From Eutreptiella sp. 'Long Island Sound 2002' (lineage: Eukaryota > Protista > Euglenida): DNA of 64,000 nt. The position numbers were made by a program, and so were the translations under genes. Of the stretch, positions 2,834 to 64,000 are shown piece by piece. The stretch covers positions 7,192,001 through 7,256,000 of the forward strand of contig OZ038378.1 in the NCBI GenBank assembly GCA_964036045.1, read 5' to 3'. Positions within the stretch are counted from its first letter, which is position 1; every line of letters begins with the position of its first letter. The notes under the pieces were generated by a model. It was not told the origin of the DNA. It saw nothing but the letters and a program-made list of their open reading frames with translations, and did no database searches.

Positions 2834-3069
2834 TAAGAGGTAGAAACCGGGTAGGACTACCCCCCCCCCCAACCCCCAAGCCTGCACGGCACCGGGGGAC
2901 CCCCACAGCGGCCGCAAGGGCTACGCGTGGGCGGCTCCTGGTTTCTGTCGCAGTGCAGAAAAGGTAGTTACCACGACCCCCCGAAAGCCCGCGGGGTCTG
3001 TGGTACCCCGTTCCCCCGGGCCCCACAAGGGACGCGCGGAGACGGGGTGGGCCCGTAGGGGTCGGGGGG

Positions 3070-5520: not shown

Positions 5521-5633
5521 GGGGGTCTGAAGGGCACTCCCAATTTGCGTTCTGTCCTGCCGCCCTCCATCGCGGAGGGAGGGGTGCGGGGTGCTGAGGT
5601 ACCCCCGTCTTTGCAGGACACAGAGAACGCAAA

Positions 5634-8600: not shown

Positions 8601-9605
8601 GCCATCTAACCCCTGTCCCCGGGGCGGTTGGGCATGGTCTTGAAGAAGGCCTTCGGGGACTTCCGTGTGTCCTACATCAAGGACGAAGGGCAGCTATGCC
8701 ACACGGAGGATGGAGGTTGGGCACTCGTGGGCGTGCGGCCCGAGGCTGCCTCCGCCTTGGAGGGGGGCGGGGGTGACGCCGACAAACAGTTCACCTACGA
8801 GTGGGCCAAGGCCAACAAACAACCGTATTCCGGCGGGCTGCTGCGGGCCCACCACGTGGAAAAGAGCAATGCTGTGCTCCAGCGGATGCGTAGTGGGGAC
8901 CTTATGGCAGGACCCAAAGGCTTGATCCGGGCTCGTGATCGGGACGGGGCCGGGGACGAGGGCCGGAAGCGGCGCCGGTCCCCCTCTTGGTCCCCCCCGC
9001 GGTCCTCCCATCGGTCGGAGGGAGACTACACCCCGCGACGGGGGAGCAGGTACCCCTCGCCGGAGGACGACTACCGTCGAGGAGGCTCGCGGCATACCCC
9101 CCAGTCGGTGGGGGGCCCGTGGGATGGGCGCTACGACTACCGTGCGCCGTCGCGGAGCGAGCAACCTCGCCAGCCACCACAATGGCTCCCCCGGGACGAC
9201 GGCTGGGGACAGGACTATCGGTCTTACGACCCCCCCACGAGTTACGGGGAACGCTCCCCCTACCCTCGGCCGGAGATGCACCCCATGGCTCCGCCTCATC
9301 AGGCGGCGGCGGCCAGCCCTCCGACCGCCGCCGTTTGGGGAGCGCCGCCCGTGGATCCCCGCTACCCGGGGGACGGCCGTGCGCCCCACTACGGGGCGGC
9401 CATGCCCCCGCAGGGGTTGGGCGTCCCGCAGGCGCCGTATCAGCACCAGCCATACGGACCACCGGCCCCGACCGCGGACGCGCCAGCGCCCCCCTCGGGG
9501 TACGCGGGGCCCTGGTACGGGGAAACAGTCCCAGCTCCCGCTGCCACAGCCCCGCCCGGCCCGGTTCACCCGGTGGCGCCCCCCACTTGGGGACCCAGCC
9601 CGTAA
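5634..9605 (+). CDS. LINE ORF1 reading frame (~1320 codons) broken by three in-frame stops; coiled coil, RRM-like and RS/Pro-rich segments
   Basis: Seen: ORFs 5634-7826, 8001-8609 and 8628-9605 share one frame, separated by TAA 7824, TAG 7953 and TAA 8607. Heptad-like LQDLERDLEDAQ...LRRQLADAQR at ~7420-7740. The RRM-like pattern YSVAVMVRW...VLKKAFGDFRV...GWALVGV...AASAL...FTYEWAK at ~8545-8815 is inference. Confidence 0.7.
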
Positions 9606-25729: not shown

Positions 25730-26290
25730 GGGGGCAGTGGGCAGTGTTACGCACCGCCTGGGGGCTGTGGGCAATGGAAATAGCGCTTCGCACTGCCTCA
25801 CTGCCTGGGGGCGGTGGGCAGTGCAACTCCTGCAATCCGCTGCCTCACTGCCCGGGGGCAGTGGGCAGTGCAACTCCTGCAATGCACTGCCTCAGTGCCC
25901 TGGGGCAGTGGGCAGTGCATCTCCTGCAACGCACCGCCTCACTGCCTGGGGGCAGTGGAGGGCGCAACTCCCGCAATGCACTGCCGCACTGCCTGGGGGC
26001 AGTGGGCAGTGCAACTCCTGCAATGCACTGCCTCACTGCCCTGGGGCAGTGGGCAGTGGAACTCCTGCAATGCACTGCCTCACTGCCTGGGGGCAGCGGA
26101 CAGTGCAACTCCTGCAATGCACTGTCTCACTGCCCTGGGGCAGTGGGCAGTGGAACTTCTGCAATGCACTGCCTCACTGCCTGGGGGCAGTGGGCAGTGC
26201 AACTCCTGCAATGCACTGTCTCACTGCCCCGGGGCAGTGGGCAGTGCAACTCCTGCAATGCACGACCTCACTGCCTGGGCGCAGTGGCCG
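25730..26290. repeat. ~47-bp minisatellite, ~12 units, each an imperfect palindrome
   Basis: Seen: ggggcagtgggcagtgcaactcctgcaatgcactgcctcactgcct; aactcc recurs at 25825 and 25872. Confidence 0.9.
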
Positions 26291-29200
26291 CACTCCTGCG
26301 GGAAGAGGCAGCGAACATGGCAACAGGGCTGGGGGCGAACTGTGTCACGTAGGCACTGGTCACACCGTTCACGGCGAATGGGTCGGCAATGTGGGATGCC
26401 CAGTTCTCAACAGGGCCCTCACCAGTCACGATGGCCCGCACGTAGTAGCCGAACATCGAGAACATAGCAAGACGGCCGTTCTTGATCTCCTTCACCTTCA
26501 ACTCAGCGAACGTGTCAGGGTCGTCAGCCAATCCCAGAGGATCGAAGGCTTCACCAGGGTGCAGCTTATCCAATCCCTCACCCAATGGGCCAGACTCAGC
26601 TGCACGGTAAGCCTCAACGGCTCCCACCAACAGAACCTGGCAGGCCAGGATGGCCAGGATGGATTGGGCGTGGACCAGCTGAGGCTCACCCAAGTAGTTG
26701 ATACCACCCTCACTGAAGATGGCGGCACCAGCCTTGAACCAGACAGCGGAGTCCCCGGCGAAGGAGATGCCTCCTCCGTACTTGGCAAGGAACTCTGGGG
26801 TGATGCACCCCAAAGTGCCCAACATGGCCCAACGGGCATGGATCAGCTCGGCCTCACGGTACTTCTCCAAAGTGGTGGGGTCAGCACCCAGTCCAGCAGT
26901 GTCCCAACCGTAATCACCAGGCAGCTCACCAGTCAGGTATGCAGGCACGTTCTGGGTGTAGGGGCCCAACCACAGGTTCCGGTCAGGGCCGTACCAGAGG
27001 TCAAGAGGGGTGACGGACTTCTGGAAACTTGCGGCCAGACACAGCGAACATGGCAACAGGGCTGGGGGCGAACTGCGTCACGTAGGCACTGGTCAAACCG
27101 TTCACGGCGAATGGGTCGGCAATGTGGGATGCCCAGTTCTCAACAGGGCCCTCACCAGTCACGATGGCCTGCACGTAGTAGCCGAACATCGAGAACATGG
27201 CAAGACGGCCGTGCTTGATCTCCTTCACCTTCAACTCAGCGAACGTGTCAGGGTCGTCAGCCAATCCCAGAGGATCGAAAGCTTCACCAGGGTGCAGCAG
27301 ATCCAAATCCTCACCCAGAGGACCTCCGTTCACACGGTAAGCCTCAACGGCACCCATCAGCACAACCTGGCAGGCCAGGATGGCAAGGATGGACTGGGCG
27401 TGCACCAAATGGTCGCTGCCAAGGTAGTCCAGACCGCCCTCAGAGAAGATCTGAGCACCAGCCTTGAACCAAACGGACTCGCCGAAGGGCACACCGGCGT
27501 ACTTGGCCAACAGCTCAGGGGTCAAGCAGCCCAAAGTACCCAACATGGCCCAACGAGCGTGGATCAGCTCAGCCTCGCGGTAGGCAGCGAAGGTGGTAGG
27601 GTCGGCGGCAAGACCAGCAGTGTCCCAGCCGTAGTCACCAGGGTACTCACCAGTCAGGTATGCAGGGGTGGCACCCTCGGAGAACGGGCCCAACCACTTG
27701 TTGCGGTCGGGGCCGTACCAGGCAGAGGAGGGGACACTGGCCGTACTCCTGCGGGAAGAGGCAGCGAACATGGCAACAGGGCTGGGGGCGAACTGTGCAG
27801 CGTACACAGCGGTCAAACCGTTCACGGCGAATGGGTCGGCAATGTGGGATGCCCAGTTCTCAACAGGGCCCTCACCAGTCTCGATGGCCTGCACGTAGTA
27901 GCCGAACATCGAGAACATGGCAAGACGGCCGTTCTTGATCTCCTTCACCTTCAACTCAGCGAACGTGTCAGGGTCGCCAGCCAATCCCAGAGGATCGAAG
28001 GCTTCACCAGGGTGCAGCTTATCCAATCCCTCACCCAATGGGCCAGACTCAGCTGCACGGTAAGCCTCAACGGCTCCCACCAACAGAACCTGGCAGGCCA
28101 GGATGGCCAGGATGGATTGGGCGTGGACCAGCTGAGGCTCACCCAAGTAGTTGATACCACCCTCACTGAAGATGGCGGCACCAGCCTTGAACCAGACAGC
28201 GGAGTCCCCGGCGAAGGAGATGCCTCCTCCGTACTTGGCAAGGAACTCTGGGGTGATGCACCCCAAAGTGCCCAACATGGCCCAACGGGCATGGATCAGC
28301 TCGGCCTCACGGTACTTCTCCAAAGTGGTGGGGTCAGCACCCAGTCCAGCAGTGTCCCAACCGTAATCACCAGGCAGCTCACCAGTCAGGTATGCAGGCA
28401 CGTTCTGGGTGTAGGGGCCCAACCACAGGTTCCGGTCAGGGCCGTACCAGAGGTCAAGAGGGGTGACGGACTTCTGGAACTTGCGGCCAGACACAGCGAA
28501 CATGGCAACAGGGCTGGGGGCGAACTGCGTCACGTAGGCACTGGTCAAACCGTTCACGGCGAATGGGTCGGCAATGTGGGATGCCCAGTTCTCAACAGGG
28601 CCCTCACCAGTCACGATGGCCTGCACGTAGTAGTCGAACATCGAGAACATGGCAAGACGGCCGTTCTTGATCTCCGTCACCTTCAACTCAGCGAACGTGT
28701 CAGGGTCGTCAGCCAATCCCAGAGGATCGAAAGCTTCACCAGGGTGCAGCAAATCCAAATCCTCACCCAGAGGACCTCCGTTCACACGGTAAGCCTCAAC
28801 GGCACCCATCAGCACAACCTGGCAGGCCAGGATGGCAAGGATGGACTGGGCGTGCACCAAGTTGGAGCTGCCAAGGTAGTCCAGACCGCCCTCAGAGAAG
28901 ATCGAGCACCAGCCTTGAACCACACAGGCTCGCCAAAGGACACACCGGCGTACTTGGCCAACAGCTCAGGGGTCAAGCAGCCCAAAGTACCCAACATGGC
29001 CCAACGAGCGTGGATCAGCTCAGCCTCACGGTAGGCAGCGAAGGTGGTTGGGTCGGCGGCAAGACCAGCAGTGTCCCAGCCGTAGTCACCAGGGTACTCA
29101 CCAGTCAGGTAGTCAGGGGTGGAGGCACCAGAGAATGGTCCCAACCACTTGTTCCCCTCAGGGCCATACCAGGCCGCCAGAGTGTCAGAGACACGGCCAG

Positions 29201-30530
29201 ACGCAGCGAACATGGCAACAGGGCTGGGGGCGAACTGTGCAGCGTACACAGCGGTCAAACCGTTCACGGCGAATGGGTCGGCAATGTGGGATGCCCAGTT
29301 CTCAACAGGGCCCTCACCAGTCTCGATGGCCCGCACGTAGTAGCCGAACATCGAGAACATGGCAAGACGGCCGTGCTTGATCTCCTTCACCTTCAACTCA
29401 GCGAACGTGTCAGGGTCGTAAGCCAATCCCAGAGGATCGAAGGCTTCACCAGGGTGCAGCTTATCCAATCCCTCACCCAATGGGCCAGACTCAGCTGCAC
29501 GGTAAGCCTCAACGGCTCCCACCAACAGAACCTGGCAGGCCAGGATGGCCAGGATGGATTGGGCGTGGACCAGCTGAGGCTCACCCAAGTAGTTGATACC
29601 ACCCTCACTGAAGATGGCGGCACCAGCCTTGAACCAGACAGCGGAGTCCCCGGCGAAGGAGATGCCTCCTCCGTACTTGGCAAGGAACTCTGGGGTGATG
29701 CACCCCAAAGTGCCCAACATGGCCCAACGGGCATGGATCAGCTCGGCCTCACGGTACTTCTCCAAAGTGGTAGGGTCAGCACCCAGTCCAGCAGTGTCCC
29801 AACCGTAATCACCAGGCAGCTCACCAGTCAGGTATGCAGGCACGTTCTGGGTGTAGGGGCCCAACCACAGGTTCCGGTCAGGGCCGTACTAGAGGTCAAG
29901 AGGGGTGACGGACTTCTGGAAACTTGCGGCCAGACACAGCGAACATGGCAACAGGGCTGGGGGCGAACTGCGTCACGTAGGCACTGGTCAAACCGTTCAC
30001 GGCGAATGGGTCGGCAATGTGGGATGCCCAGTTCTCAACAGGGCCCTCACCAGTCACGATGGCCTGCACGTAGTAGCCGAACATCGAGAACATGGCAAGA
30101 CGGCCGTTCTTGATATCCTCTACCCTCAACTCAGCGAACGTGTCAGGGTCGTCAGCCAATCCCAGAGGATCGAAAGCTTCACCAGGGTGCAGCAGATCCA
30201 AATCCTCACCCAGAGGACCTCCGTTCACACGGTAAGCCTCAACGGCACCCATCAGCACAACCTGGCAGGCCAGGATGGCAAGGATGGACTGGGCGTGCAC
30301 CAAATGGTCGCTGCCAAGGTAGTCCAGACCGCCCTCAGAGAAGATCTGAGCACCAGCCTTGAACCAAACGGACTCGCCGAAGGGCACACCGGCGTACTTG
30401 GCCAACAGCTCAGGGGTCAAGCAGCCCAAAGTACCCAACATGGCCCAACGAGCGTGGATCAGCTCAGCCTCGCGGTAGGCAGCGAAGGTGGTAGGGTCGG
30501 CGGCAAGACCAGCAGTGTCCCAGCCGTAGT
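26290..30530 (-). pseudogene. Lhcbm: Intronless fragment of an LHCII (Lhcbm) polyprotein: six units (A partial, B, A', B, A, B) joined by short linkers; disabled
   Basis: Seen: repeated [32 protein letters not shown] and EIKNGRLAM motifs with linkers SPVAMFA(A/V)S(S/G)R. Lesions: TGG>TAG at ~29890, +1 frameshifts at 29920-29922 and 27025-27027, and a 1-nt deletion at ~28903. No transit peptide and no introns. Established: euglenids encode LHC as linker-joined polyproteins. Confidence 0.92.
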
Positions 30531-30672
30531 CTGCCCAGGGGGCGTCCGGAGTCTCCTGCCAGGCCAGAGGGGGGTCTTCTTCTTCAGGGAACCGGGCGCA
30601 CCGGCCCGGGGGGGACGGGGTGTCCTGCCCAGGGGGTGTTCGGAGTCTCCTGCCAGGCCAATGGGGGGCCAT
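29896..30672 (-). CDS. Chimeric ORF (258 aa): ~47 repeat-encoded residues fused in frame to most of one LHCII unit
   Basis: Seen: MAPHWPG...ETPDAPWA|DYGWDTAG..., terminated by the +1 frameshift after the linker. Expression unknown. Confidence 0.3.
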
Positions 30673-31968
30673 CTTCTTTAGGGAACCGGGCGCACCGGCC
30701 CGGGGGGGACGGGGAGTCCTGCCCAGGGGGTGTTCGGAGTCTCCTGCCAGGCCAATGGGGGGTCATCTTCTTCAGGGAACCGGGCGCACCGGCCCGGGGG
30801 GGACGGGGAGTCCTGCCCAGGGGGTGTTCGGAGTCTCCTGCCAGGCCAATGGGGGGCCATCTTCTTCAGGGAACCGGGCGCACCGGCCCGGGGGGGACAG
30901 GGAGTCCTGCCCAGGGGGTGTTCGGAGTCTCCTGCCAGGCCAATGGGGGGTCATCTTCTTCAGGGAACCGGGCGCACCGGCCCGGGGGGGACAGGGAGTC
31001 CTGCCCAGGGGGTGTTCGGAGTCTCCTGCCAGGCCAAATGGGGGGCCATCTTCTTTAGGGAACCAGGCGCACCGGCCCGGGGGGGACGGGGAGTCCTGCC
31101 CAGGGGGTGTTCGGAGTCTCCTGCCAGGCCAATGGGGGGTCATCTTCTTCAGGGAACCGGGCGCACCGGCCTAGGGGGGACGGGGAGTCCTGCCCAGGGG
31201 GTGTTCGGAGTCTCCTGCCAGGCCAATGGGGGGCCATCTTCTTCAGGGAACCGGGCGCACCGGCCCGGGGGGGACAGGGAGTCCTGCCCAGGGGGTGTTC
31301 GGAGTCTCCTGCCAGGCCAATGGGGGGTCATCTTCTTCAGGGAACCGGGCGCACCGGCCCGGGGGGGACAGGGAGTCTTGCCCAGGGGGTGTTCGGAGTC
31401 TCCTGCCAGGCCAAATGGGGGGCCATCTTCTTTAGGGAACCGGGCGCACCGGCCCGGGGGGGACAGGGAGTCCTGCCCAGGGGGTGTTCGGAGTCTCCTG
31501 CCAGGCCAATGGGGGGTCATCTTCTTCAGGGAACCGGGCGCACCGGCCTGGGGGGGACGGGGAGTCCTGCCCAGGGGGTGTTCGGAGTCTCCTGCCAGGC
31601 CAATGGGGGGCCATCTTCTTTAGGGAACCGGGCGCACCGGCCCGGGGGGGACAGGGAGTCCTGCCCAGGGGGTGTTCGGAGTCTCCTGTCAGGCTAATGG
31701 GGGGCCATCTTCTTTAGAGAACCGGGCGCACCGGCCCGGGGGGGGCGGGGAGTCCTGCCCAGGGGGTGTTCGGAGTCTGCTGCCAGGCCAATGGGGGGCC
31801 ATCTTCTTCAGGGAACCGGGCGCACCGGCCCGGGGGGGACGGGGAGTCCTGCCCAGGGGGTGTTCGGAGTCTCCTGCCAGGCCAAGGGGGGGCCATCTTC
31901 TTTAGGGAACCGGGCGCACCGGCCTGGGGGGGACGGGGAGCCCAGCCCAGGGGGTGTTCGGAGTCTCC
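30531..31968 (-). repeat. Tandem array of ~15 GC-rich 94-bp monomers
   Basis: Seen: + strand unit gggtcatcttcttcagggaaccgggcgcaccggcccggggggggacggggagtcctgcccagggggtgttcggagtctcctgccaggccaatgggg. ORF starts recur at 94-bp spacing (30584, 30678, 30772). Confidence 0.95.
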
Positions 31969-32415
31969 CAGCAGCAGCAGGCAAGTAAGCAGGCAGTACC
32001 GGGGGTCATAACCCCGGGGTAACAGTATCTGGGACTCAACGTGAGTCCTCTTAACCAGGAACAACCCCAAACACCGCCGGGGCTTAACTCCCGAACGTAA
32101 CGGTGTTTGGGGCCCCCGTGGGCCTTATGAGCCCACGGAGTGTACTGAGGCGTGGCTACCAGCTGGACTGTGGCCTGCCATACCCATTTCTGGGCTCGCC
32201 TCAGTACGGCCGGTCGAGTCCGGCTCTGGGGGTTGCGCACTAAATTGGCCCCGGGGGGGGGGCCATTTACCCTGTTAAGCATTAGTTACGGCAGTAGGCA
32301 CTATTCATTACGTTAGGGAATTACTCAGCGCTGTTGTTTACCCCGCAGACATGCCCCTTCCAGTGGTGCGCTCACCTTTGGGGCTGCCTTTGGGGGATCG
32401 GGGGCTGTTACCCCT
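31969..32415 (-). ncRNA. Structured RNA module, copy B (inverted homolog of 2385-2833)
   Basis: Seen: the reverse complement aligns colinearly with copy A from gggtaa..gcccc..cccccaaaggcagccccaaagg through tgcctgctgctgct. Confidence 0.6.
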
Positions 32416-33347
32416 CCCGGACGCCCTCCCTGGTGTTGGCGCCGGGGTGGTGGCCGGGGGGCCTTATACCGTACCTAAAGGATGTCGGATACCGATACCA
32501 GGGTGTCCAACCGGACGGGGACAGGGGCGGCGTCTCCGGGCTTTGTCATCTGGCCCACAATCGACTGACCCACTGGACTGCTCCACTCCAGTCCTCAGGC
32601 CAGCTTTATATCCCTCCTCGCACCCTCGCACATGTTACAGGGCGGGGGGTCGTTGTCGGGGCCCCCCGCGCATGTCCGCGCCACCGGCCATCCCCTCCTC
32701 CCAGGCACCGCGCCTCTGCTAGGGCGGGGGCCCCTCACATGCACCCTTCAGGGCCCTTTCCACCTGCACACCTGGACGCTTGCCATGAAGACCCCGTATT
32801 GGAGGCTCCTCGTCGGCGCGCCCGGGTCCAGATTGTTCACGCGGCCGGCCGCCGATGCGGGGCCCTGGAGGCGCGCCGCACAGGCGCTGCCAGCCTGCGA
32901 GAGGGGCAAGGGCGGGAGAAGGGGGTGGGGGGAGGGGCAGTGGGCAGGGGAGGCGGCACGGAGTGGCTGCGGGAGGTAGTGCATGGGGGGCACCGAGAGC
33001 TGCATGGGGGTGTGTGGGACGGAGTTGGGGCAGAGGGCCCTGTGGGTGGGGCAAAGGCGCGGGGGGGGCGCATGTCCGGGCTCCTGCGTGGGCTGGCGCG
33101 TGGGCGGGCGCGTAGGGGAAGAGAGGAGGGGGAGGCTTGGTCAGCCGTCCTCTACGGAGGGTCGCTGACCGTTCCCAGGGCCAAGGCGGCCGGTACTAGG
33201 GGCCGCGGGGTCCCTGGGGATGGTGCTTGGCACTGGGACGTGCGCGCACCCGACACTGTTAGTACACCGCCTATTGGCAGTGCCCGGGCCCTGTCGTCGG
33301 GGGCTTCGCACCCGGCACCCAGCCCGTGAGTAGAGCTGGGGAGTACT

Positions 33348-37340
<3,993 letters not shown>

Positions 37341-39319
37341 TTCTCAAGAAAAGCCCCTAACAAATACCCCAAGCTAGAGTGGGCTTGTGCACGGATGTGC
37401 ACTGATGCATGCTAGTGTGCACAAATGTGCACACTTTAAAGGGTAGGCCACGCGTGGTGCCCATGGCAACGCAAAAAGCGCGCAATAAACCTTGTTTAGG
37501 CTACTTGGGGCTCCACCCCACGTTCTAGAAGAGAACGGGTGGAGTCGTTAGCGCTTGCTTGCTTGTTGCTTGGTTTTGCTGACCTCTTGGGAGGGTGGAG
37601 CTAGGAACCGGATATTCTGGGGGGCCTCACTTTGATTGGCCACTAAGTAAAACCAAGTCATCCGCCTTTGCTTTATAGGTGGGTCAGGTCAAGGTGAATT
37701 GGTGCATAAGTCCTCCAGCCAAACAAGGAGGCGCTACTTAAGCTAAAAAAAAATTTAGATGATTACATGGCCTTGTGGGGGCCCGCCACACCCACAGACA
37801 AGTTTGACAAGCATTTCTGCACGGTGAGCACACTCCTTCCCTCCAAGCCCTTGCAGCGAAACACGTTGAGGCGTCCTTGTCAGGCCAAGGTTGCATATCA
37901 GCGCCCCGTTCTCTTGTATATCTCACCGGAGGGCCAATAGGGCCGGTGATCTCATTGACATGGCAACGCCCAGTAGAGCGTGTAGGTGTTAGGGGTGGTA
38001 GGCCTGGACATGTGTCCTTCGAAGGCCGGTGCCACCGATAGTGAGTGTAGTGTAGCGGTGTTTCCTGTCCCGCATGCTTTTCCGTGCGGGCCGGGAAGTG
38101 TGTTAGTTTTTGGCCATTAGAAAAACGGGCATTTTTATACCTATAGCATACTCGGCCACCCCCTCCCCTTCGTACGTAGGGCTTTTGCCGTTCCCTCCTA
38201 TAGGAGCCGCCAGCACAGAAATTGGGCGCCCTAGGAGAGGCCATAGTAGGTGGCTGGGACCTACGGTCTAACACCAATGAAGGCATTGCGCAGCCTCGCC
38301 CGGGGAGTGTGAGTGAGACACATACATCACAGACATAGCACACTTAGGGGTATGTATTGTAAGGTACCCCCTTCGTGGCTCAAGGTATATTAGGATAGAA
38401 CACCGTGGGATACAGACCCACTGATATCAACATGGAGGGTTAGAACCCCACGGGCCTGGACCAGTCAGGGGTCCTAACTGTGGGCACGCTTGTCCCCAAG
38501 GTGGGTCACCACACCTTGCCTATCATCACCTTGCTTGTTACCCCCCCCCTGGTATAGGAGGCCACTGCTACGCGTTGGCTCCCCGCAGGTTATCACACCA
38601 AGGCATGTACTCATGCGCCACGTGGTCAACAAGGCGAAACCACTCTCACAATGTTGGTAACCACAAGCATGAGTAGTGCAAGGCACACACTGATGAGGCC
38701 TACACTATGAGTGCACACCGCCCTTGGGAGGTTAGGCCAATAGAGGGGGGTTGCGAGTAAAGGGCCTCACAGGTTAGTGCCACTCCACTTAGGACCTGCC
38801 CCAGAGCAAACCCTGCTGACGTAGGCCAGCATCTTCAAGGGATCGGCGTTTGAGATGGTCGTATGGAGGCGGGAATCCACGAGTGAACCGCCCCCAAGGG
38901 TACCTAGTTCAGCGCGTGGGCGCGTTCTTGGTACTACACAGTGCAGGGTGATGGCACTGTGGGAGGCTGAGGTAGTAGGGCCCACTGACCATGGCTGCAA
39001 TCTAGATAAGCGGCCATGGTATTCCGATGACCCCCAGTGTTACTTCCCTCGGTGGGGGGGAAGCACACCTCTAGGGGGAGCCAATACGCCTGCAGGCGTG
39101 GCCCAAAGGAGACTCCTAACGGGAGGAGGGGATGTCCCGGTAGTGCCACCGCCTCCTGAAGCTCGCAATCTCTCTCTCTCTCTTTGGTTAGGATACCCAG
39201 AAAGGTAGGGTTAGGGAAATTGCTTTTTCTTCTTACGCTGGGACAACGTCTCAACGTGGGTTAGGAGCTGACTCTCGTTGCTCTCAACGAGATAGGAACG
39301 GCAAATGGGATTGATAGTC

Positions 39320-39450
39320 ACATGAGGTTGTACAAAGGCTGACATGGGCTCCCAAGTCGCCTTAGCGAGGCCATAGCCTTCCCACAAGGTGAGGAATTTT
39401 CAACCCTATTTATACTCGTGGCAAGCAATACCTACAACCACGTAGTGACC
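39320..39450 (-). pseudogene. Chromodomain at the integrase C-terminus
   Basis: Seen: HYVVVGIACHEYK*G*KFLTLWEGYGLAKATWEPMSAF, matching the chromo pattern Y.V..I...F.V.W.GY....TWEP. Confidence 0.8.
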
Positions 39451-42399
39451 ATCCATTGCCATCTCATCAGTAGTCATTTCCTCGAGTTTGTCTGCCTCCT
39501 TAGGTGTGGCAGCGTTCTCTTGGTCGATTTTCTCGACCTCTTTATCACTCAGACACCACTCATCGCATGCCAGGTCATCGGGAGAGTGGAAGTGCCTCAA
39601 ATGTTTAAGGGCACACAGCAGTTCCTCACTAGACAGGGACTACATCACACATGGATCCTGGGTCCATTTATCTTTATTATGTGGTAGAGTTCAAAATAGG
39701 GGTCTTGCACACAGTCGCGGGGCCATGAGGGCTATCACAAATGGTGCACAAGCACCAGTTCACCTACTCTGAAGGTAGCGGGACGCCTGAGGCGATTCCG
39801 CCTGGTCAACTTACGTTCACCTACGTGTTTGAGGTCATTGGCCAAATTGGCCAAATCCTGTTTGTGTTCCAACCAATCCCCTACAAGGCTCTTGTCCTCA
39901 AGAAAGGGGGTTTTGCAAAACCAAGCAGGACGCCCCCAATGGAACAATTCGTGGGGGCTGAAACTCGTAGAGGAACTCCGTTGGGAGTTCATGGTTAGCA
40001 CTGCCCAAGGTAACAGGCACACCCAATCTTTGGTGTGTTCCTATTTCATCACATCTCTCAGCTTCTCTTCAACCACACCATTTTTGTCTCTCACACAGAG
40101 GGTTAGAAGTGTGGGTATAGGGCACACATGTGGTTACTTGGACGTTCAGTGTGTCCAACACTCGCTTGTACCACCCAGTATCGCTCCGGATGCGTACATC
40201 CTCATCTGAGTGCACCTCCTCGGTCTCTAGAGTCACTTTGATTGCTGGCGCGACAGCCACAAGCGTCCACAATGGACTGCATACGCGACTTGAGCTCAGA
40301 GTGGGTTAGTCGGGAGAAAAAACACTCCGTGAAGAAATCCGTTGAACAGTTACAGCCTCTGTGTCCTGAACTGGGATGAGCCCAATGTAGGCAACCATCG
40401 AGTCGTGCCTCAGGCACAACTATCGGGTCCTCAAAATAGAGGTACTGGTTGTCTTTATAGCATCAGTCACCGTCTATAAGACGGCCTCTAGGCCATCACT
40501 GAGGGTTCGGAGTACACACCGGTACTCCTGTTGGTAGTCCTTCAGACTCCAGCCCTCTAGGACTCTAGCAGTGCGCATGGACATGTCCAGCTGGACATCC
40601 ATACGCTGGAACGCCACTTTAGCAAGCAACTCGGAGCTCTCACCCAGGAGGGCATCAAAGTTGTTTCGCGAAATATAGTCAGCCAATTCGTTTTTTATAC
40701 CTTGTATGTGGTGGACACTCAATCTGAACTGATTGAGGTAGGTCCACCATCGCTTCAGCTTAGCCTTCTCAACAAGGGGACCCTTTTGAAAGGTTTTTAC
40801 TGGTTCTTGGTCACCAAGCCACACAATAGGGTTAGTCCCAAGGAGGCGAGACTAGGAAGAGAGCACGAGCATCCCAGCCAGGAGTTCTTGGTCGTGGGTG
40901 TTGTAGTTGGATTGTGCTTGATTCCATTTCCAGTTCCAGTGCCCCGGGGGGACTAGACGCCATTCATTGGCAGGGTAGTCATGCTTCAGGGACCCGTCAT
41001 GGTTCCAACCAGAAGTGTGGAAGTGGCAGTGAGACAACTCAGTCGGGTTGAGCTCCTGCCATTGGTATAGGGTACCCCGCCCCCCTACATCACAGGCATA
41101 TGTGATGAGTACAATCTTGCCCTTAGGGCGAGGTACCCGCAGGCAATTGGTAGAAGAAGTATTCTTCTTCAGTTCCTGGAAATAGGCTTCTTCCTTGGCG
41201 GTCCATCGCTAGGGGTTGCTGTTTTTTATGAGGTGAGTCACGGGGGCTGATAAATAGGTAAAATTGTGTATGTGGTGTCCGTAACAATTACATGCCCCAA
41301 TAAAATTGCGGACATCGTGTAAACCCTTCTTAGAGTCATCACGGATTTTCATGTCCAGTAGGGGTTGCATCTTCGATGCAGCTGGTTTCCACCAGCCATA
41401 TCCCACATCAAAACCTAAGTGCTCCATCTCTTCTCGCATGAACTCGCATTTCTCGATTTTACTGTGGAGATGCTTTTCCTAGCAGACAGTGAAAAGTTCT
41501 TGTAGGAGGAGGATATGATCCTCCTGGGTATAAGGACAAGCTGACATCATCGATGTGTGCCTCCATTTCAGCCCCGCGGGAAACGAGCTCCTACATCAAG
41601 GTTCTTCGTCTCAGGATATATAAGATTTTCTTCATTAGCTCCTGAAAAAGAGCAGGAGCATTAGCAACACCGAAGGGCATGACCTTCCAGCGGAAGACAC
41701 GGCCTTCAGGCGCCACAAATGCGAGCAACTCTTGAGCTGCTCGGGTCAAGCCAACCTGCCAGAATCCACTGCGCTTGTCCATTTTATTTTTATAACAACA
41801 ATTAGCCATACATTCCAGGGTGTTCTCCATGTTGGGATACTCCCTGAGTGATTCTCGGTCTTCTTATTGACAGATAGAATATATATATATATATAGAACA
41901 TATAGAAACAGGCATGTTGTTGGGAGAGGGTTTAGCGCCAAGAACCTTACCTATTGGGCTATCAAAGAGCCGCATTGACAGAACAATATGGTCGTAAGAC
42001 ATAGCACTGGTGGATTCGAGGTCCACCTCTTCTAGGAGCAGTTGTGCCAGGAAGGCACTGTGCTTCAAGTTTAACACCTCCGAGTCGACCGGTGGTATCG
42101 CGATGGCGATCTCACTTAGGTGGTCGTCAGCATCAGCCATCGGAGGAGAGATTGCAGCAGTCTCCACTTCATCGTAGCTCTCGTTACTCGTAGTAGTGAC
42201 CCAAGGGTACTCAGATGATCTCTTCTTGAGGTCATGCAGGGTAAGGCCACGGTTTTTGGCCATCAACTCCTTGAGTACTTCCTGGTCAAGGTCACTCACG
42301 AGTACGGGGTTCAAAGAGCCATCAACGGTGGACACGAAACTACCCCATTCAGGGGCAGGCATAGTCTCCTGAGGGTCTTGAGGAACATATGCAAGGGCT

Positions 42400-42740
42400 G
42401 CTGGGAAGTTCAGTCCTCCCCACAGTCATACGGTCCAATAGCCGCCTCCAGTAGGCGTGTTCCCTTGTAGTACCCCAATCAGGGGTGCACAATACCACTC
42501 TCGCTCCTTCAAGCGATCTTAGTTAAGACCTTGGCAAGCTAGGAGAATGGGGGGTTAGCATAGCACAACCCGAGAACTCTTCAGGAGGAACGATAGGCAT
42601 TGTTGAGGTTCTGCGAACAGTAGAGCCACATCAAATGCTACTCCTTGCTCGCGAACACTTCCACCTGAAGGTCATTCAGGTCCACCTGTAGGGCGGCCAA
42701 TCCATTCTCGAGGACTGACCGAACCAATTGATAGTAGGAC
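42400..42740 (-). pseudogene. Dam-like DNA N6-adenine methyltransferase domain within the gypsy pol
   Basis: Seen: QVEVFASKE*HLMWLYCSQNLNNAYRSS*RVLGLCYANPPFS*LAKVLTKIA/EGARVVLCTPDWGTTREHAYWRRLLDRM, with NPPF at 42545-42556. Established: DLFAS-like and NPP(Y/F) motifs mark amino-methyltransferases of the phage Dam type. Confidence 0.75.
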
Positions 42741-45700
42741 CGGTTCACGTAGCGTAGACCGGATTCTTTCCATCCTGACAGCTCCAGAGGGACAGAGAAG
42801 AGGCCACTGCCAAAGTCGCAGTGTAGGGCGCAGGGGCGTTGCAGAGACAACAACTTCACCTAGGGGTTTCGGCGCAGAAAATCTGTGCCAATGACAATGT
42901 CAAAGGCGTCTGTATCCGGCACTCTGCAGTGCTGGGTCACCTGTTCATGCATTGCCCTGACGTGCTGTCACATCAACCCCACCCAGAGAGTGTATAGTCC
43001 TGCCATCCCCTACCCTTATGGCCACTGTTTTGGTTTTCTGGATCTTGGCGGGTTTTAGCAATCAGCTGGCCACGATAGACATTGTGGGTCCTGCGTCTAA
43101 GACTGCCTTGAAAACCTGATCGCCAATCTTTACCATGATCCAAAAAACCAAATCATCTTCCTCAGAGCCGCCCCCCTATCCCTCTTCAGGGAACTTCACC
43201 TCCACCCCGGCCTTCATGAGGCTCTTGGCCATCCAGTTGAGACGGCGCTTCTTGGTGTTGGCTCCATTACCCTGGCTGCTTCTGCTAGCCGCTGGGGTTG
43301 AGGGGGGTGCTACACGCTTCTCACCCTGCTGCTCTTTGCGAGGGGCAGGGTTAGAGTTACCTCCACTACTTGTGGGGGGGGGCTGATGACCGCCATCCTC
43401 CTCCCGCCTTGTTCGTGCAAGGGCTTGAAAATGACCCCTACACGTTTGCCACTAGTGTGCAGCACCGTGGCCACATGTGAGCGCTCCTCGAAGAGCGCCT
43501 TAAAGGTGTGCTTCCCCACTCCCCACGCAATGTTAATAGGGGGGGGGGAGGGCAATGAGGGGAAAGGAGGAGGGGGGGGGGGGACTAGTCTTGCCGCATC
43601 ACACCATCTTCTTCCTCTGCCCCTCACTCGATAGCAACACCACGGGATCCAGGGTGCAGCACAAGTGGACCGGCTGCTCCCCCTCGGGTGGCGGGCGTGC
43701 AGCCTGCAGCGGAACCTGCAGGGGCTAGGATGTAATTCTATATGGCCTGGTTCAAAGACAGGGGCCGCGGACATTTGGGCCGGCCAGCCACTTTGTCACC
43801 AGGAGCAGTTTTGTGGATGACAATTGTTGTTTGTTTGACAAAGACTTTTGCCCAGCGCAGGCCATAGACCATTGGGGGAGTGTTGTAGTGGCAAACCTCC
43901 TCCCATCCACCAAAATCACCCTTCCCCCACCCCCCACACCCGTCTCCTTCTTTACAATTCTCCCATCAGCGCCTGTCCATCTGAGCCAGCAGCTTCCACC
44001 ACTGGCTCTTCAATTTCCAAGTGTGCACGGTTCACAAAACTTGACCGAATATCCCACGTGTGCCCATTCAAACTGAGCCGCATCATACTAATCAAAAGCC
44101 AAACAAGTGTCCATGCATGTAACCCGGATAATCCTTATCCCAAAATCTGAGATCTGTGGCACACAAATGCTCCTCCTCTAGATCTGCAAGTCCCCAGATG
44201 CCGTCTGTTGTATCTGTCCCATGTTGTCCTGATATCCTGTACCTGCAACAAAGATGGGCGCCTTCAGCCCTCTTGGGCACGACTGTGCTTCCCATTTTGG
44301 TGGCCTTTTTCTTCCTACTGAGCACAGCTTTGGTTGTCAGTTGCAGAACTGCCAATGAGTGATTGCAGTTGATGACCAGACAGCAGAAGATGATGCTTCA
44401 CTGATGGTGATTTGGCGCTGGCATTGGAGGTGGTAGTGACTGTGTAACGGTTCATGGTTTTTGTTCTTTGACAACAGCAGCCCGTCTTGGGGTTCCCGAG
44501 TTTGAAACATTTTGGGTTTATCTCTGGTAGCATCTCCCATGCTTACTCGGGGTTGTCCAAAGATTTGGCTGCTGGAAGCAGCTGCAAGTCTTGCAGCTAC
44601 TCAAATGACTGTTTCTGCACTATTGTGATTGGTTCGTTGATGCTATGGGCAGCAAGAAGGGGTTCAAGTAACGGGTCATCCAAGAATCCAAGACCATTCC
44701 AGAAAATTGGAGTGTATGATTTTGAATTTGAGGGCTTTGGGTAAATTGTTGTTGATGTCAATACCCACCCAGCATTGTTGAAAGACAGGAATCACTTCAG
44801 ATATCAATACCCACACCGAAATCTTCTCAGTGGACCAAAAACAACACCCCATTGCATTTTGCTACATGTGCTTCATTCCCATGTTCACACATTCTCCTCT
44901 AGTGCATAAGTTTGAATTTTGAACTTTAGTGCAGCCGCGGGTGTGCAGCCTTCGCAACGCTTCCCCTTTTGTTTTGTTTGGTGTCTGCCACTAGCGGGAA
45001 GGGGGCATTTCCGATAGGTTTTCCTGGGTGTCTCCCTCACGGCTAGTCCTCCCATTTTCCCCTAGGGCCTGACCGGTGGCGCGTTCCCCTGGGAGATGCC
45101 CTCACGGCTCTGGCCCTTTGGTTCTTTTTTCAAAGATTCCTCTGGCCCACCCCTAACCCTGGTACAGCTTTTTGGGCACCTACAAGCAGGCTTTGTGCGG
45201 AGAGCTTCACCGACAACAAAGCATTTTCATCAACCGCCTTCAACCACTTCCCATCCTTCATAGGTATGTAGTACCCACTCGGCTCGTGGGTGTATTGGGT
45301 TGTCGTCTACCCATGGCTGGAGGCCAAGGGGCGAGCTCCGCGTGTCCAGATCCGTCATGGTTGTCTTTGTACGTGGAGGCCATTGACCCAAGGATCTTAG
45401 GGTTCCGCTATCTTTTTCTTGTGGTCAGGACACCCAAGGAGGGCCTGTGGTTCCCCACACCAAGGCAATGCCGATTGTTTGGGGTGTGTTGGTGTTTCTT
45501 CTGCCAATCTTATCTCACCCAGCACCCAAACTCATTTTGCCCAGGTGGATTTTCAAGGTCCTGTGCAACCGCTTCTTAACCGTACGATTGCACAGCAGTC
45601 GAACAACCATTTGACCTACAGGAAATTTAAAAATGAACAATTGCAGGATGGCACCAACTGCCACCAGAATTGGGACTACAAATCTGGGTTGACCATCACA

Positions 45701-45959
45701 ACAACATCGGAATTAGGTTTTATTTCATCAAAAGCGGACGTAGTAGGCGAGAGATATGAGATGGAAACGTTTTTGGGCAGCTGCACAGCCGCTAGAGCTG
45801 CCGGAACCTCTACGTAGAAGGTTGGATATTGAGCTTCTCCGGTGCGTTTGCTGGCTGGCCAGGGTGGTATTGGTGGTGCATTGCTGTGCATTTGAGGTTT
45901 CCTGCATCCGGTGGATCCACTGTACCAGGTATCACACATAATACTTCAGTTTTTCGTAG

Positions 45960-46200
45960 TTTTAGTCCTGGATTAGGCAGAAAGACAAGGTACCACGACA
46001 TGGAATGAAAGCTTTGTGCATGGATTGTAGCAAGAAGGAATAAGCGGGTCATTGTGACCAAGGAGATGTGCTTGGCTTTGAAGAAATGAGACAGTGCATC
46101 AGACACTGAGATTGTGTGGGGCAGAAAGTGCGCTTGGTGTATGGGGATTGCAGATGTTTTTGCCAACGGAAAATTGTATTTCATGCGCGATGTTCCTGAG
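45960..46200 (+). mobile_element. Possible pogo/CENP-B-type HTH transposase remnant
   Basis: Seen: GRKTRYHDME*KLCAWIVARRNKRVIVTKEM. Inference: resembles GRK.KY..LE..L..WI...R....VT..M of Tc5/CENP-B HTH domains. No DDE domain or TIRs seen. Confidence 0.4.
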
Positions 46201-49200
46201 GCAGACTGCCTGCCACAGGGGCTGGAGCCCCCTGCCAAGCCCCCTGCCAAGCCTGCACCCAAAGCTGCCAAACTTCATGCCAAACCCTCAACTAAGAGTG
46301 CAGCCAAACATGCTGCCCAGGTGGCAGCCCAGCCTGCAGCTGGAGACCCCTGTTGAGCATGTGCAGCTCTTCAGAGTCAAATACTTCCGCCAGAAAAAGT
46401 GGCACACAGAGCCTGTCTCTCAGTAGAGCTGAACACGTATCCCAATAGGCAGTTTCTGGCTCATTTTGTGGTTCATCTGCCCTCGTGTCTGCATGTTATG
46501 TTTCGTGTTGTGGGGGCGAGGCATCCGTCACTCGGGGTATGTTCCCTCGGGGGTGCGAGGATACCGTCACGCGTCGGAGATTACTGTGCAACGGGGAGGG
46601 GGGGGGGTAAGCTATTTGTCATCAACAATTGCCGTCTGATGTTTGATGCTCGATAGATTTGCAGCATCACAAACACACATGCCACAGGCCCAATACAAAT
46701 GACACATGAGGCAGGGAGGGAACAGACACCATGCACCGAACAATTTGCAGACAAACACACACACGCACACACACTCACACACGAACATAGAATGCAATGC
46801 AATGCGTTCGTTGTGGTTGTCGGTGTCATCGTGATGATTGGCAGCGGCTCTTTGGCTTGGCTCTTCTTTCGTTTTGCTGCTGCGTCTCACATTCTGGTGG
46901 CTAGCGGATTTCAAACTCAAACGTGGGCAAAATTTGAAATTCTTCCACACTTTTAAAACCATATGGAGCCATTGTCATGATTTTCAGGATTACCCCATGA
47001 AATGCCGGCTTATGCTGTGCCAGCGCCAAGGGCACCTACTTCAGGGAGGATTTCACAAATTTCGGGCAGTACCATTTTCAAAATCATTTCGGGCAATGCA
47101 ATTTGTATTCAGGACCTCAGGGTAGATGGCATGACGGAGGGCCTATCTCAACAACCGGTCACTGGATTGCATACAAACATTCATAGATGCATACATGGAT
47201 GCATACATGTATGTATGCATGTGTGCAGGTATGTATGTTTGTAAGGATGTTATGTGTGTATGTATGGTTGTACTGGTATATGCTAATTTCTACATAGTTG
47301 GGAAAACCAGCGACATTCTTTACATAGACAAGGAATACGGTTGCATACAGCAATGTACAGCTAGTGTACATAGTATACAGTAGTATACAAAAGTATGGTA
47401 TACTTCACCTACAGCGAATACAGCAGTATATAGTATATAGTATACAGCATGGTATACAGCACACATACAGCAAGAATACTGCAAGCATACTGCAGTATAC
47501 CAGGTATACTTGTCGGCACGTTGGACCACGTTTTGGGGTACACTTGGTATGCAGTCACCCTTCTGCAACCCCATGGGCAGTTAGTAGTATAATTTGTTTC
47601 TCAGTTTTTGTTGTTTGCGAGGTAACTTCATGCACCCCGTGTGCTTTGTCTTTGGGGAGCTGAGTTGTGTAGTTGCATGGGGAAGGACAGCATGGACTCT
47701 TGTGCGCGTGTGTGTACACGCTTCACCCTTTCCTCCTCAACGGAGGCAATAACAAATGGTCTAATTTGTGTTCTCTTTCAACTTGTGCGTGTTTCAGTCC
47801 GTGGAGGATTTGATCCGGGCTGACCAGCAAGGACACCCCCAATCTCAGTCTCCCATTGCATTCTGGTTGTTTCCGAGATCTGCTGCAATAGGGGCGGACG
47901 CAACCTGCAGCATGCTTTTTTTTTATACATGCGGACATTTTTGTGTCAATGCCAACACATACCGTTGTTGCACATAGGGTTATGTATATTTTTTGAAAGG
48001 GTAACAAAAATTTGCATGCACTCACACTATTTTCTGCCCTATTTTGTGGAATTCAACGCTGAAACAGGCACAACAAGAATAGACGAATTTACGCAACGAA
48101 GATAATGTGTTGAAAAGAGTTATACGATTCTCGCATTACGGCATCAGCTTCAATTTCTCAAGATTTTTCTAATTTTCTTTATCATCGCTACCTAAAATGG
48201 CCACGCGGCGACAGATCGCTTGCACCAGATTATGCAAATAACCTTGTGTACGGCGAAGAGAATGTTTTGATGGCATGGCGTTAGGGTAATCCAGCTTGTT
48301 TGGTATTTCAACATTGGATGTTTTGTTTTTTAAGGTTAGTGGAATGCGCAATGGCTAGCATACCAAGGTTTTGCAACATTACAACTTCCAAACTCTACGT
48401 TAAGTGCCAAACGATGGTAATAGGTGTCCAACCAGTTCATTAAGGACTGAAACTAGTAGCTACTGCAACTCTGTTGAGTACGGAGGGATTCATGGGTTAA
48501 CATGCAACACAGCACATACCATTGTGCAAATTTAGACCTTAGCATCAAACACCCATTGCTTAAAGCCACCAAAACAATACGTTTCACCATTCTTTTGTGC
48601 GGAAAAAAGGTTCTGTTGCACATTCGTTGCGTGATGTGCATACACTATGTAGTATTGTGTGTAACGTAGGTTGTCTTTGGACAATCCACAATTGTAGAAA
48701 ATGTCAATCAATCACACTTTGCCTCGTCAAAGATGTTGTACGATGATGTCGATGTGCTCAAAAAAACCTCAAAAAAGGTTTCATCACAGGTGCATTCAAA
48801 GAAGCTTCCACAAAAGCAAATAAACATTGGGGCATCCAACGTAGCAAATGTACTTTTCTGCTTTCAAGCAATATCACATAAGTGCTTCACAACGTGTTCT
48901 CTGGGAACTACATTCCGTTTCATGCACTATGGAATTGAGAGTCGGAGCTCTTATTAAGCAAGGCCTTGAGCCCTCAACCCTCATTTAAGAATAATGAAAC
49001 ACATACTTTTAACGAAGGAATTATATCTGAAGGTCATCCACATCATAAATGCCTCTCGTTGTCTGATTGATCACATTATTTACAACCATGCCACGGAGCT
49101 ATGAAATAGGACATGTCTTGCCCTTTACGTTTTGCAATCATTCGCCCATAAAAGCAAAATCGCTAGTTGTCCCGAGTTGGATTCATCCTCTACCAATTTG

Positions 49201-62075: not shown

Positions 62076-62426
62076 GCAGGCGGCGAACCAGGCCAAGCAC
62101 ACATGTAAGCCATTATTGGTGAAAACAGCGGTTTGGAGTCTTTCACATGGGCCATGCATGACCTGCCCTATGCACCGGTACAGACTGCAACGAAGTTCCT
62201 TCTGGATCCCAGTCAGCATATACAACATCGACTGCGACGACATCTTAAAATGCACCTCTTAGAGTCGGCACCGCGGGGTCACTAAGGTCGCCAAAAACAA
62301 AACATAGCAAAAATACCTGAAAATGCATAAACTGCAAAAACGGTCATTTTGCAGACGGCTTCGTTTCGAACATTTCGTACAACGTACAGCGCCCTCCCAG
62401 CCTTGTCAAGCCGTCTGCATGCACAC

Positions 62427-62601
62427 CTGTACAGAATTCCACGGAACTCTGGGACACCAATCCAGCCATCGCGATCCACGTCCAACTTCAAGAAGGCCTC
62501 CCTCATGCTCGTGAACTTCCGCTCTAATTTGGCTTTGAATTCACGCAGGTGCCGATACGAGAGGGCGGGATCCGCATATTCACTCACGTACTCTGATGTC
62601 C
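62427..62601 (-). CDS. Internal exon of a host EF-hand protein
   Basis: Seen: acceptor atgcag|gg, then TSEYVSEYADPALSYRHLREFKAKLERKFTSMREAFLKLDVDRDGWIGVPEFRGILY, then donor ag|gtgtgc. Canonical EF loop DVDRDGWIGVPE. Confidence 0.75.
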
Positions 62602-64000
62602 CTGCATGTTGACAAGGGCCTGAAAGCCAAGCAACACCGAGGTCCGTGCCACGAGGGTCTGTGCTAAAGAGGGATATGGTGCATGCGTCTACACTGTGGG
62701 TGCTTATGTGGTAGTGTCTATACTTTCATGGGTCTGTGCTTTTGGGGTCTGTGCTTTGGGGTCTTTGCCACAGGACGCATGGTGCAGGGTCAATGCTCCA
62801 GCAGCACGAGCCCCTGCAACAGAAAACTGTGTTGCACACACTCCTGCAGCATAGACCCTTGCCATGCAGCGTCTTGCAGTAGAGGTCTCTGTACCTTCAA
62901 CCCCTGGAGCCCCAGCTCTGATGCCATCCGCCCCTGTAGCAAAGAGCATAGGTCCCTGCAGCCAAAGCCCTCCAGCACAGACCCCTGGAGCACAGATGCC
63001 TGTAGCATGAAGTCAGCACTGATGAATGAGGCTGCCAAGCGGGTGTAATTTTACATTTGAGGACTGAAAGAGCCAGTCTTTGGGTATATGTATCAGTGGC
63101 GGCACATACAAGAGACACCCGTCAGAGAGGGCACCTCCGGGTAGCCCACTGACTGGAGTGCTAGGGGGGCTATGCTGCAGGGCCTGTGCTACAGGGCACA
63201 GTGGCTAGTGCTGCAGAAAGTGGCCTATCACAATGGAGGCTCCTCAACACCTTACAATACACACAAGCAAAAGCAGAGAAGTGGTCACTTCACCTTTTGG
63301 ACTGGGCCCTGTTGCAGACTGCAGGGGAATCTGTCGTGTCGAAGCAGATTGGGTTGGTGATACCTGCAGAGCACAGAACAAGACAACAGCAAATAATCAC
63401 AGAAAGGTTCAGAAGCCTGCAAAGCCCGACAAGACGTGCACTCTTTCAAAGGTCTGCAGGTGTTCACAAAACCCACACCAACAGACAGTTGGCCGGGTTC
63501 AAGGGTCGCAATACAAAGCATGCAATTGAGCTACACATCTTCGTTCCACAGAACCTTCATCTCAACTTGACACATGCAGTGGCTGATGGTTTCGTGACGA
63601 TTAGAACATACCACTGAACATATGGGTCCGGCTGCAGAGAAATCAACAATCCGCTCCACCCATCTTTTACTCCCCAAACCCAAGGCTTTGTGGAACTTTT
63701 GGAGGTCAGAACTAGCCAATACATGCCCAAGATGGGCTGCAAACACGGGTTTGAGCATCATGAGTGGGCGAGGAACAACTTCGGCAAAGCTCATCTTGAC
63801 CCACTTTTGACCAATGTTGGACCTCCCCCTCAACTTGGAGCCCCCAGGCCAGCAATGGGGAGCTTCTGGATCAATCTGGAAGACAGGCTATTTTGGGGCC
63901 CAAACAGCCTTGCAGCTAGCAAGGCACGGCGTTGGGCTTGTGATTAACAATATGGCTGGGTGAAATGTTGCCTGCTTGCTTGCTTGTGCCGGATTTACAT

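What the first reader, a model, noticed from the sequence alone, without database searches (positions are those of the whole stretch)
42400..42740. Ty3/gypsy chromovirus carrying a Dam-like N6-adenine methyltransferase between protease and RT
Seen: after the protease the pol frame reads EVFAS...LYCS...NAY...(W)...CYANPPFS..AKVLTKI...VVLCTPDW.....YWRRLL despite three stops and one frameshift, then continues to RT, RNase H, integrase and a chromodomain. Established: this motif set is that of phage Dam-type amino-methyltransferases, and a similar domain is known in DIRS retroelements. It is not part of the standard gypsy pol. Inference: an LTR element that could write 6mA (or 4mC) on its own cDNA or target while reading chromatin through its chromodomain.
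Basis: partly seen in the sequence, partly recalled or inferred. Interest (0 to 1): 0.85.

Follow-up and report, generated by a model that had tools for sequence, protein, structure and literature searches.

The report
Gypsy retrotransposon carrying adenine methyltransferase domain
A broken copy of a very abundant jumping gene, in what is likely a euglenoid alga, carries between its protease and reverse transcriptase a domain predicted to be an adenine methyltransferase of phage type; the feature is real, but this kind of element was described in a 2026 preprint, so it is a new example rather than a new thing.

Summary
On the minus strand a decayed, 5'-truncated Ty3/gypsy element (about 43380 to 37430) runs gag tail, protease, methyltransferase, acidic linker, RT, RNase H, integrase, chromodomain, then a probable LTR. 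The window piece hits Pfam Dam only weakly (E 0.011). However, 384 sister proteins match it, and two hold gag, protease, MTase and RT in one ORF, so it is not a nested DIRS fragment. A sister domain folds confidently (pLDDT 93) as an amino-methyltransferase, closest to phage N6-adenine MTases and to the RNA cap enzyme PCIF1. A neighbouring LHC polyprotein points to a euglenophyte host. A May 2026 preprint already describes such DAM-LTRs, including chromodomain-bearing ones in Euglena gracilis; its E. coli assay found no activity. No cytosine methyltransferase was found, so this is not an 'EpiLTR'. This copy cannot encode an enzyme. DNA 6mA writing by intact sisters is likely but unshown. Verdict: new member of a known kind.

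The parts
43152..43379 (-). Gag C-terminal remnant; the rest of gag, the PBS and the 5' LTR are missing (5' truncation)
   Evidence: tblastn match to P0018 starts at residue 297 = 43379; contig depth falls from 41,401 to 76 between the bins at 43124-43324 and 43325-43525
42874..43151 (-). Aspartic protease, broken by stops and a frameshift near 42950
   Evidence: Pfam gag-asp_proteas E 0.012 in the window, 9.4e-11 in sister P0005; collinear with sisters
42222..42760 (-). Dam-like (PF05869/TIGR01712) amino-methyltransferase domain: acidic EVFAS motif 42661-42647, NPPF 42556-42545; three stops, two frameshifts, one 4-codon deletion
41904..42221 (-). Acidic linker, first part
   Evidence: aligns to P0018 up to residue 789; no Pfam hit
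41871..41904 (-). Deletion junction: about 210 codons of linker and RT N-terminus (P0018 790-998) are absent; a TA microsatellite lies here
   Evidence: a contig of run X4 covers 41675-42133 with no differences or gaps, so it is not an assembly error
41407..41871 (-). Reverse transcriptase (HIDD at the active-site motif), frameshifted
   Evidence: RVT_1 E 6.7e-13; sister P0131 best PDB hits 8r0s, 4ol8 and 7q5b (Ty3-G Gag-Pol, E 4.7e-30)
40726..41205 (-). RNase H region
   Evidence: RT_RNaseH_2 E 1.5e-10, RT_RNaseH E 1.8e-7
39630..40444 (-). Integrase with GPY/F-type C-terminal part; about 73 codons of the core are deleted near 40220
   Evidence: sisters P0166, P0188, P0194 align with that gap; rve E 1.4e-5 in P0167; best PDB hit Ty3-G Gag-Pol E 3.8e-9
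39223..39435 (-). Chromodomain with Y/W/Y cage positions, and end of the pol frame
   Evidence: Pfam Chromo E 0.0051; CDYL2 E 1.3e-4 for a sister; cage kept in 18 of 23 parsed sisters, of 30 fetched
38551..39222 (-). 3' non-coding region shared with sisters; no DNMT detected
   Evidence: 0 Pfam families in six frames of 37799-39300; sister read-through tails align here in shifting frames
38541..38550 (-). Polypurine-tract-like run (A followed by nine G)
   Evidence: sequence; role inferred from position
37430..38540 (-). Probable 3' LTR, about 1.1 kb (inferred; no second copy in the window, and it starts TA rather than TG)
   Evidence: repeat-level depth down to the bin 37348-37611, and a unique contig covering 35500-37460 without differences; no partner by self-blastn

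Best explanation
This is a dead, 5'-truncated copy of a high-copy Ty3/gypsy family whose polyprotein carries a phage-type amino-methyltransferase domain between protease and RT, and in intact members that domain likely adds N6-methyl groups to adenines of the element's own new DNA. Shown: domain order, one ORF from gag to RT in sisters, kept motifs, and the decay of this copy. Predicted: the methyltransferase fold. Inferred: the domain is made and packaged with Pol, so it would meet the RNA:DNA hybrid and cDNA inside the particle and methylate them there; the cage-bearing chromodomain would then steer integration to methyl-lysine chromatin, and host AMT1 might maintain the mark (the preprint's model, untested here). 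Odds: architecture 0.97; domain catalytically active in intact members about 0.65; DNA (or hybrid) 6mA as the product about 0.5.
For: 384 of 421 candidate proteins match the window piece. P0018 (1221 aa) and P0130 (1149 aa) hold gag, protease, Dam and RT in one ORF. NPP[FYW] is intact in 94 of the 120 best-listed sisters. In a 51-row alignment reaching 30% identity, motif-IV Asn is kept in 46 of 51 and an acidic motif-I residue in 42 of 49 rows with a residue; 27 of 51 hit PF05869 at E<=0.1 against 1 of 51 for PCIF1. TIGR01712 hits 6 of 7 proteins sent, all but the window piece. AlphaFold model: pLDDT 93.2, pTM 0.89; named phage N6-adenine MTases match at E about 1e-6, TM 0.59-0.62. Protease-then-MTase recurs in families at 33-44% identity (P0222, P0245, P0258, P0261, P0339). 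Among 144 distant pairs (not independent) mean identity is 0.39 in the MTase against 0.33 in the protease region, which suggests long-term constraint. The preprint reports more 6mA on DAM-LTRs than on other LTRs, in E. gracilis too.
Against: No activity is shown. The preprint's E. coli assay of eukaryotic DAMs gave no 6mA increase. Iyer et al. judged DIRS-borne copies of this clade likely inactive (PMC4738411). The best solved-structure match is the RNA cap enzyme PCIF1/CAPAM (Foldseek E 5.7e-5, TM 0.52; Z 8.9, rmsd 3.5, 141 aligned), above T4 Dam (Z 6.4) and E. coli Dam (Z 6.3). Pfam scores are mostly below the cut-off: 2 of the 30 distant proteins scanned pass 28.1 bits, 0 of 7 close sisters. 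13 of 51 aligned rows carry R at the second proline. A sequence search of the PDB with the alignment found no methyltransferase. Sisters were collected with the MTase as query, so MTase-less family members would have been missed.
Confidence: 0.5

Rival explanations
1. The domain is an active enzyme but acts on RNA: like PCIF1 it would N6-methylate the cap-proximal or other adenosines of the element's own transcript or primer.
For: PCIF1/CAPAM is the top PDB match in both fold searches, followed by KsgA, DIMT1 and Erm RNA N6-adenine enzymes. Iyer et al. place DIRS MTases in the PCIF1 clade. It would explain the negative DNA assay in E. coli.
Against: Phage N6-adenine DNA MTases fit better than PCIF1 by TM (0.59-0.62 against 0.52) and by profile (27 of 51 against 1 of 51). 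The Z margin over the next row is only 1.2. The 184-residue domain aligns to part of a 482-residue PCIF1 chain only. The preprint finds 6mA on the DNA of such elements.
Confidence: 0.15
2. The domain is a pseudo-enzyme kept for binding: it would grip the RNA template, cDNA or host chromatin or RNA polymerase II machinery without transferring methyl groups.
For: Iyer et al. proposed this for DIRS copies; negative assay in the preprint; a related family with NPRF-type motif persists (P0200, P0202, P0211).
Against: The main families keep both the acidic motif-I residue and NPP[FW] across 30-40% identity, which a pure binder need not do.
Confidence: 0.3
3. The segment is a nested DIRS fragment or a chance motif match in a decayed element.
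For: The window piece alone is below the Pfam cut-off; the preprint notes mixed DIRS/LTR clades and possible nesting in E. gracilis.
Against: Unbroken sister ORFs run through both junctions; another genomic copy spans 42273-43331 in one contig; the same position recurs in distant families; no recombinase hit in the flanks scanned.
Confidence: 0.02

Closest known systems
[quoted passage not shown]
   Same: Ty3/gypsy element with a PF05869-type domain, Asn-Pro-Pro plus aromatic pocket, and a chromodomain; euglenid-type host.
   Different: The host is probably not E. gracilis (nearest named E. gracilis LHC is 62% identical; not decisive). The protease-MTase-RT order is not stated in the main text ('protease' 0 occurrences) but may be in its Fig. 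2B or supplements, which I could not see. Clade placement was not tested.
EpiLTRs (same preprint)
   Same: Chromodomain plus DAM in one LTR element.
   Different: No cytosine methyltransferase found: pol ends 54 residues after the chromodomain Trp in 15 of 23 parsed sisters, and Pfam found none downstream or in sisters.
DIRS-1 type tyrosine-recombinase retrotransposon MT domain
   Same: Same methyltransferase clade according to the preprint and PMC4738411.
   Different: Here the element has a protease, a DDE-type integrase and a chromodomain, and the MTase lies upstream of RT.
Phage N6-adenine methyltransferases (PF05869, TIGR01712, phrog_111)
   Same: Profile and fold match.
   Different: Sequence identity is low (9-21% in fold alignments; 24-28% by tblastn for a distant relative); scores are far below the TIGR01712 cut-off of 97 bits; fused inside a polyprotein; target unknown.
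PCIF1/CAPAM cap-specific adenosine methyltransferase
   Same: Best solved-structure match.
   Different: Much larger stand-alone RNA enzyme; 16-18% identity; profile hit in only 1 of 51 rows.

Membership tests
Ty3/gypsy LTR retrotransposon | Pol order protease, RT, RNase H, integrase | tested here: met
Ty3/gypsy LTR retrotransposon | RT and integrase most similar to Ty3-type enzymes | tested here: met
   Sister RT: Ty3-G Gag-Pol E 4.7e-30, among the top 3 PDB rows, far above retroviral RTs; the top row 8r0s is titled only 'Enzymatic polyprotein'. Integrase: Ty3-G best, E 3.8e-9. Similarity only, no tree.
Ty3/gypsy LTR retrotransposon | Two LTRs with TG...CA ends, PBS, PPT and target-site duplication | tested here: inconclusive
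   Only a 3' repeat of about 1.1 kb after a purine run; 5' end truncated
Chromovirus | Chromodomain at the integrase C-terminus | tested here: met
Chromovirus | Group I aromatic cage (Y24, W45, Y48 as defined in PMC3350952) | tested here: met
   18 of 23 parsed sisters; 7 of 30 were not parsed by the pattern; the window reads HYVV...LWEGY
Chromovirus | RT phylogeny inside the chromovirus clade | not tested
   No named reference RT set was in hand
DAM-LTR (2026 preprint) | DAM (PF05869) domain in an element with gypsy RT | tested here: met
   Close sisters E 1.8e-5 to 0.1, short of the preprint's 1e-5 screen; distant relatives reach 1.2e-6; the fold agrees
DAM-LTR (2026 preprint) | Asn-Pro-Pro plus aromatic catalytic pocket | tested here: met
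   NPPF in the window; 94 of 120 sisters
DAM-LTR (2026 preprint) | Placement in the eukaryotic DAM clade or the Euglena group | not testable with these tools
   The preprint's sequences and supplements were not available
DAM-LTR (2026 preprint) | 6mA enrichment on insertions and host AMT1 (associated traits) | not testable with these tools
   No whole genome and no modification data
EpiLTR | Cytosine DNA methyltransferase domain in the same element | tested here: not met
   No DNMT hit in window frames 36399-39300 and 43199-46100 or in 15 sister proteins; a separate ORF in a full-length copy cannot be excluded
DIRS retrotransposon | Tyrosine recombinase instead of integrase, and no protease | tested here: not met
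   Protease and rve integrase present; no recombinase hit

The most novel reading that the evidence does not exclude
A euglenophyte other than E. gracilis hosts a large radiation of protease-MTase-RT gypsy elements whose methyltransferase, closest among solved folds to PCIF1, methylates the element's own RNA or RNA:DNA intermediate inside the particle. That would make it a retroelement-encoded RNA or hybrid adenine writer and explain why such domains failed to methylate E. coli DNA.
Probability: 0.15. Interest if true: 0.7.

Novelty: new member of a known kind. Interest (0 to 1): 0.3.

Why it matters
The kind is already described, so the specialist surprise is low. What this adds is material: an abundant family with near-intact sister ORFs (P0018, P0130, P0131), a confident structural model, and probably a second euglenophyte host. 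The open question, whether these domains are active and on what, is unanswered in the preprint. The PCIF1-like fold gives a concrete alternative substrate (RNA or hybrid) to test.

Tried and rejected
No whole genome is held, so no full-length copy, LTR pair or dN/dS. The search for related loci with P0003 found no relative in metagenome or viral contigs. The ESM Atlas gave no answer. PHROGs: 0 hits for the window piece and P0003, phrog_111 for 5 of 5 distant relatives. PDB sequence searches found no methyltransferase. Expression: no RNA holder listed; three small possible RNA runs laid nothing; one 215-nt contig of run X6 (RNA only a guess) aligns over 42482-42633 with 27 differences; none of this is used as evidence. 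CpG observed/expected is 0.55 in the element against 0.49-0.60 in flanks, so no element-specific signal. Protease and MTase trees of 21 of 25 proteins (4 dropped for a short protease part) are mostly unresolved (2 and 0 starred branches) and show no co-evolution. The Pfam 'Deltameth_res' hit in RNase H (E 0.0014, below cut-off) was taken as spurious. Host species: LHC clusters carried no organism names; a guess at Eutreptiella is recalled and untested. Literature: five searches on this architecture returned the preprint and three papers seen as listings only and not read; subscription papers are not covered. No complex prediction was run, as no binding is claimed.

Full report
OBSERVATION. Read with X at stops, the piece hits Pfam Dam PF05869 at E 0.011, the only family hit, below the cut-off. 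Neighbouring pieces give protease, RT, RNase H and chromodomain; integrase is shown through sisters.

THE ELEMENT. It spans about 43380 to 37430. Contig depth is at repeat level over that range and single-copy outside it. Gag, PBS and 5' LTR are missing. About 210 codons before RT and 73 codons of integrase are deleted; the first deletion is bridged by an identical contig of another run. Against the related contigs of run X1, window A or T faces G or C at 278 places and the reverse at 161, which fits decay by cytosine deamination (inferred). A purine run at 38550-38541 precedes about 1.1 kb of repeat, taken as the 3' LTR. The copy cannot encode an enzyme.

NOT A NESTED FRAGMENT. 384 of 421 candidate proteins match the MTase piece, at 62-78% identity for the 120 listed, with clusters of up to 519 members. 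P0018 and P0130 carry gag, a CCHC knuckle (read by eye), protease, MTase, acidic linker and RT in one ORF. Two subfamilies (48 and 39 of the 120; 33 unassigned) are 68% identical in the MTase and 48% in the linker. An exhaustive search found 700 representatives at E<=0.001; of 30 distant ones scanned, 19 hit Dam at E<=0.01 and 5 have protease directly upstream of it. These carry no source information, so their hosts are unknown.

WHAT THE DOMAIN IS. Motif I reads (D/E)LFAS and motif IV ANPPF; counts are. The AlphaFold model of a sister domain (pLDDT 93.2) matches phage N6-adenine MTases (E about 1e-6, TM 0.59-0.62) and, among solved structures, PCIF1/CAPAM first (E 5.7e-5; Z 8.9, rmsd 3.5, 141 aligned), then KsgA-type RNA enzymes, with T4 and E. 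coli Dam lower (Z 6.4, 6.3). Profiles favour the phage family: 27 of 51 rows for PF05869, 1 of 51 for PCIF1. So it is an amino-methyltransferase fold of the PF05869/TIGR01712 family; substrate and target motif are unknown, and GATC specificity should not be assumed.

CHROMODOMAIN AND DNMT. The cage positions are aromatic in 18 of 23 parsed sisters (30 fetched), i.e. group I as defined in PMC3350952 (passages), where the MAGGY domain is reported to bind H3K9me2/3. Pol ends 54 residues after the cage Trp in 15 of 23. No DNMT was found downstream, upstream or in sisters.

HOST. At 26300-30500 an LHCII polyprotein has tandem units joined by linkers such as [10 protein letters not shown], like AMFAASGRK in E. 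gracilis LHCI-2. Decapeptide-linked LHC polyproteins are described for E. gracilis (PMC13076659, passage); polyproteins also occur in a dinoflagellate (PMC6242988, passage). The nearest named E. gracilis protein is 62% identical. A euglenophyte is likely, and a species other than E. gracilis is probable but not shown. Some sister proteins share longest-contig lengths with LHC proteins (e.g. P0102 and P0358; P0012 and P0506), which suggests one assembly.

WHAT IS KNOWN. I read the whole main text of bioRxiv 10.64898/2026.05.21.726589; figures and supplements were not seen and may show this very domain order or family. It reports five DAM-LTR lineages, including chromodomain-bearing ones and a Euglena group, a subset with DNMT (EpiLTRs), a kept Asn-Pro-Pro pocket, more 6mA on DAM-LTR insertions, and no activity in E. 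coli. PMC4738411 (passages) puts DIRS MTases in the PCIF1 clade and calls them likely inactive. PMC12577709 was seen as a search listing only. Earlier notes of this scan record three similar elements in other genomes; they are leads, not support.

MECHANISM. Most likely (0.5) the domain, made with Pol and carried in the particle, N6-methylates adenines in the new cDNA or hybrid, giving new insertions a permissive mark, while the chromodomain guides integration. Rivals: non-catalytic binder (0.3), RNA methylase (0.15), nested fragment (0.02). Only the anatomy is shown; every functional step is inferred.

VERDICT. Observation confirmed; interpretation partly supported; new member of a known kind; interest 0.3.

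Noticed in passing
window 26277-30531, minus strand: LHCII polyprotein gene of about six tandem units (710-733 nt period) with decapeptide linkers; one stretch is open for 654 codons, with no sign of introns there; frame changes occur between some units. Many similar polyproteins up to 2489 aa are in the protein collection.
   Followed up: partly
proteins P0200, P0202, P0208, P0211, P0286: A related family (32-47% identity) has NPRF-type or further altered motif IV in place of NPPF and, where scanned, no Pfam Dam hit: a possible inactive or re-specified branch.
   Followed up: partly
window 43400-46300: Single-copy DNA upstream of the truncation with no Pfam hit in six frames; a 324-nt contig of a possible RNA run matches 43994-44300 exactly. 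Possibly part of a host gene.
   Followed up: no
window 8939-14377 + and 5598-7826 +: Long open frames (1812 and 742 codons) in GC-rich DNA; no Pfam family except a sub-threshold coiled-coil hit.
   Followed up: partly
window 2940-5540 and 30437-32054: Tandem arrays of 103-104 nt and 94 nt units; flanking stretches 2360-2839 and 31965-32440 are inverted copies, 80-95% complementary, 29 kb apart.
   Followed up: no
protein P0183: A sister chromodomain joined to an endonuclease/exonuclease/phosphatase domain (E 1.4e-6), probably a LINE-LTR chimera or nested insertion.
   Followed up: no
window 62282-62725, minus strand: Weak EF-hand hit (E 1.2e-4, below cut-off).
   Followed up: no
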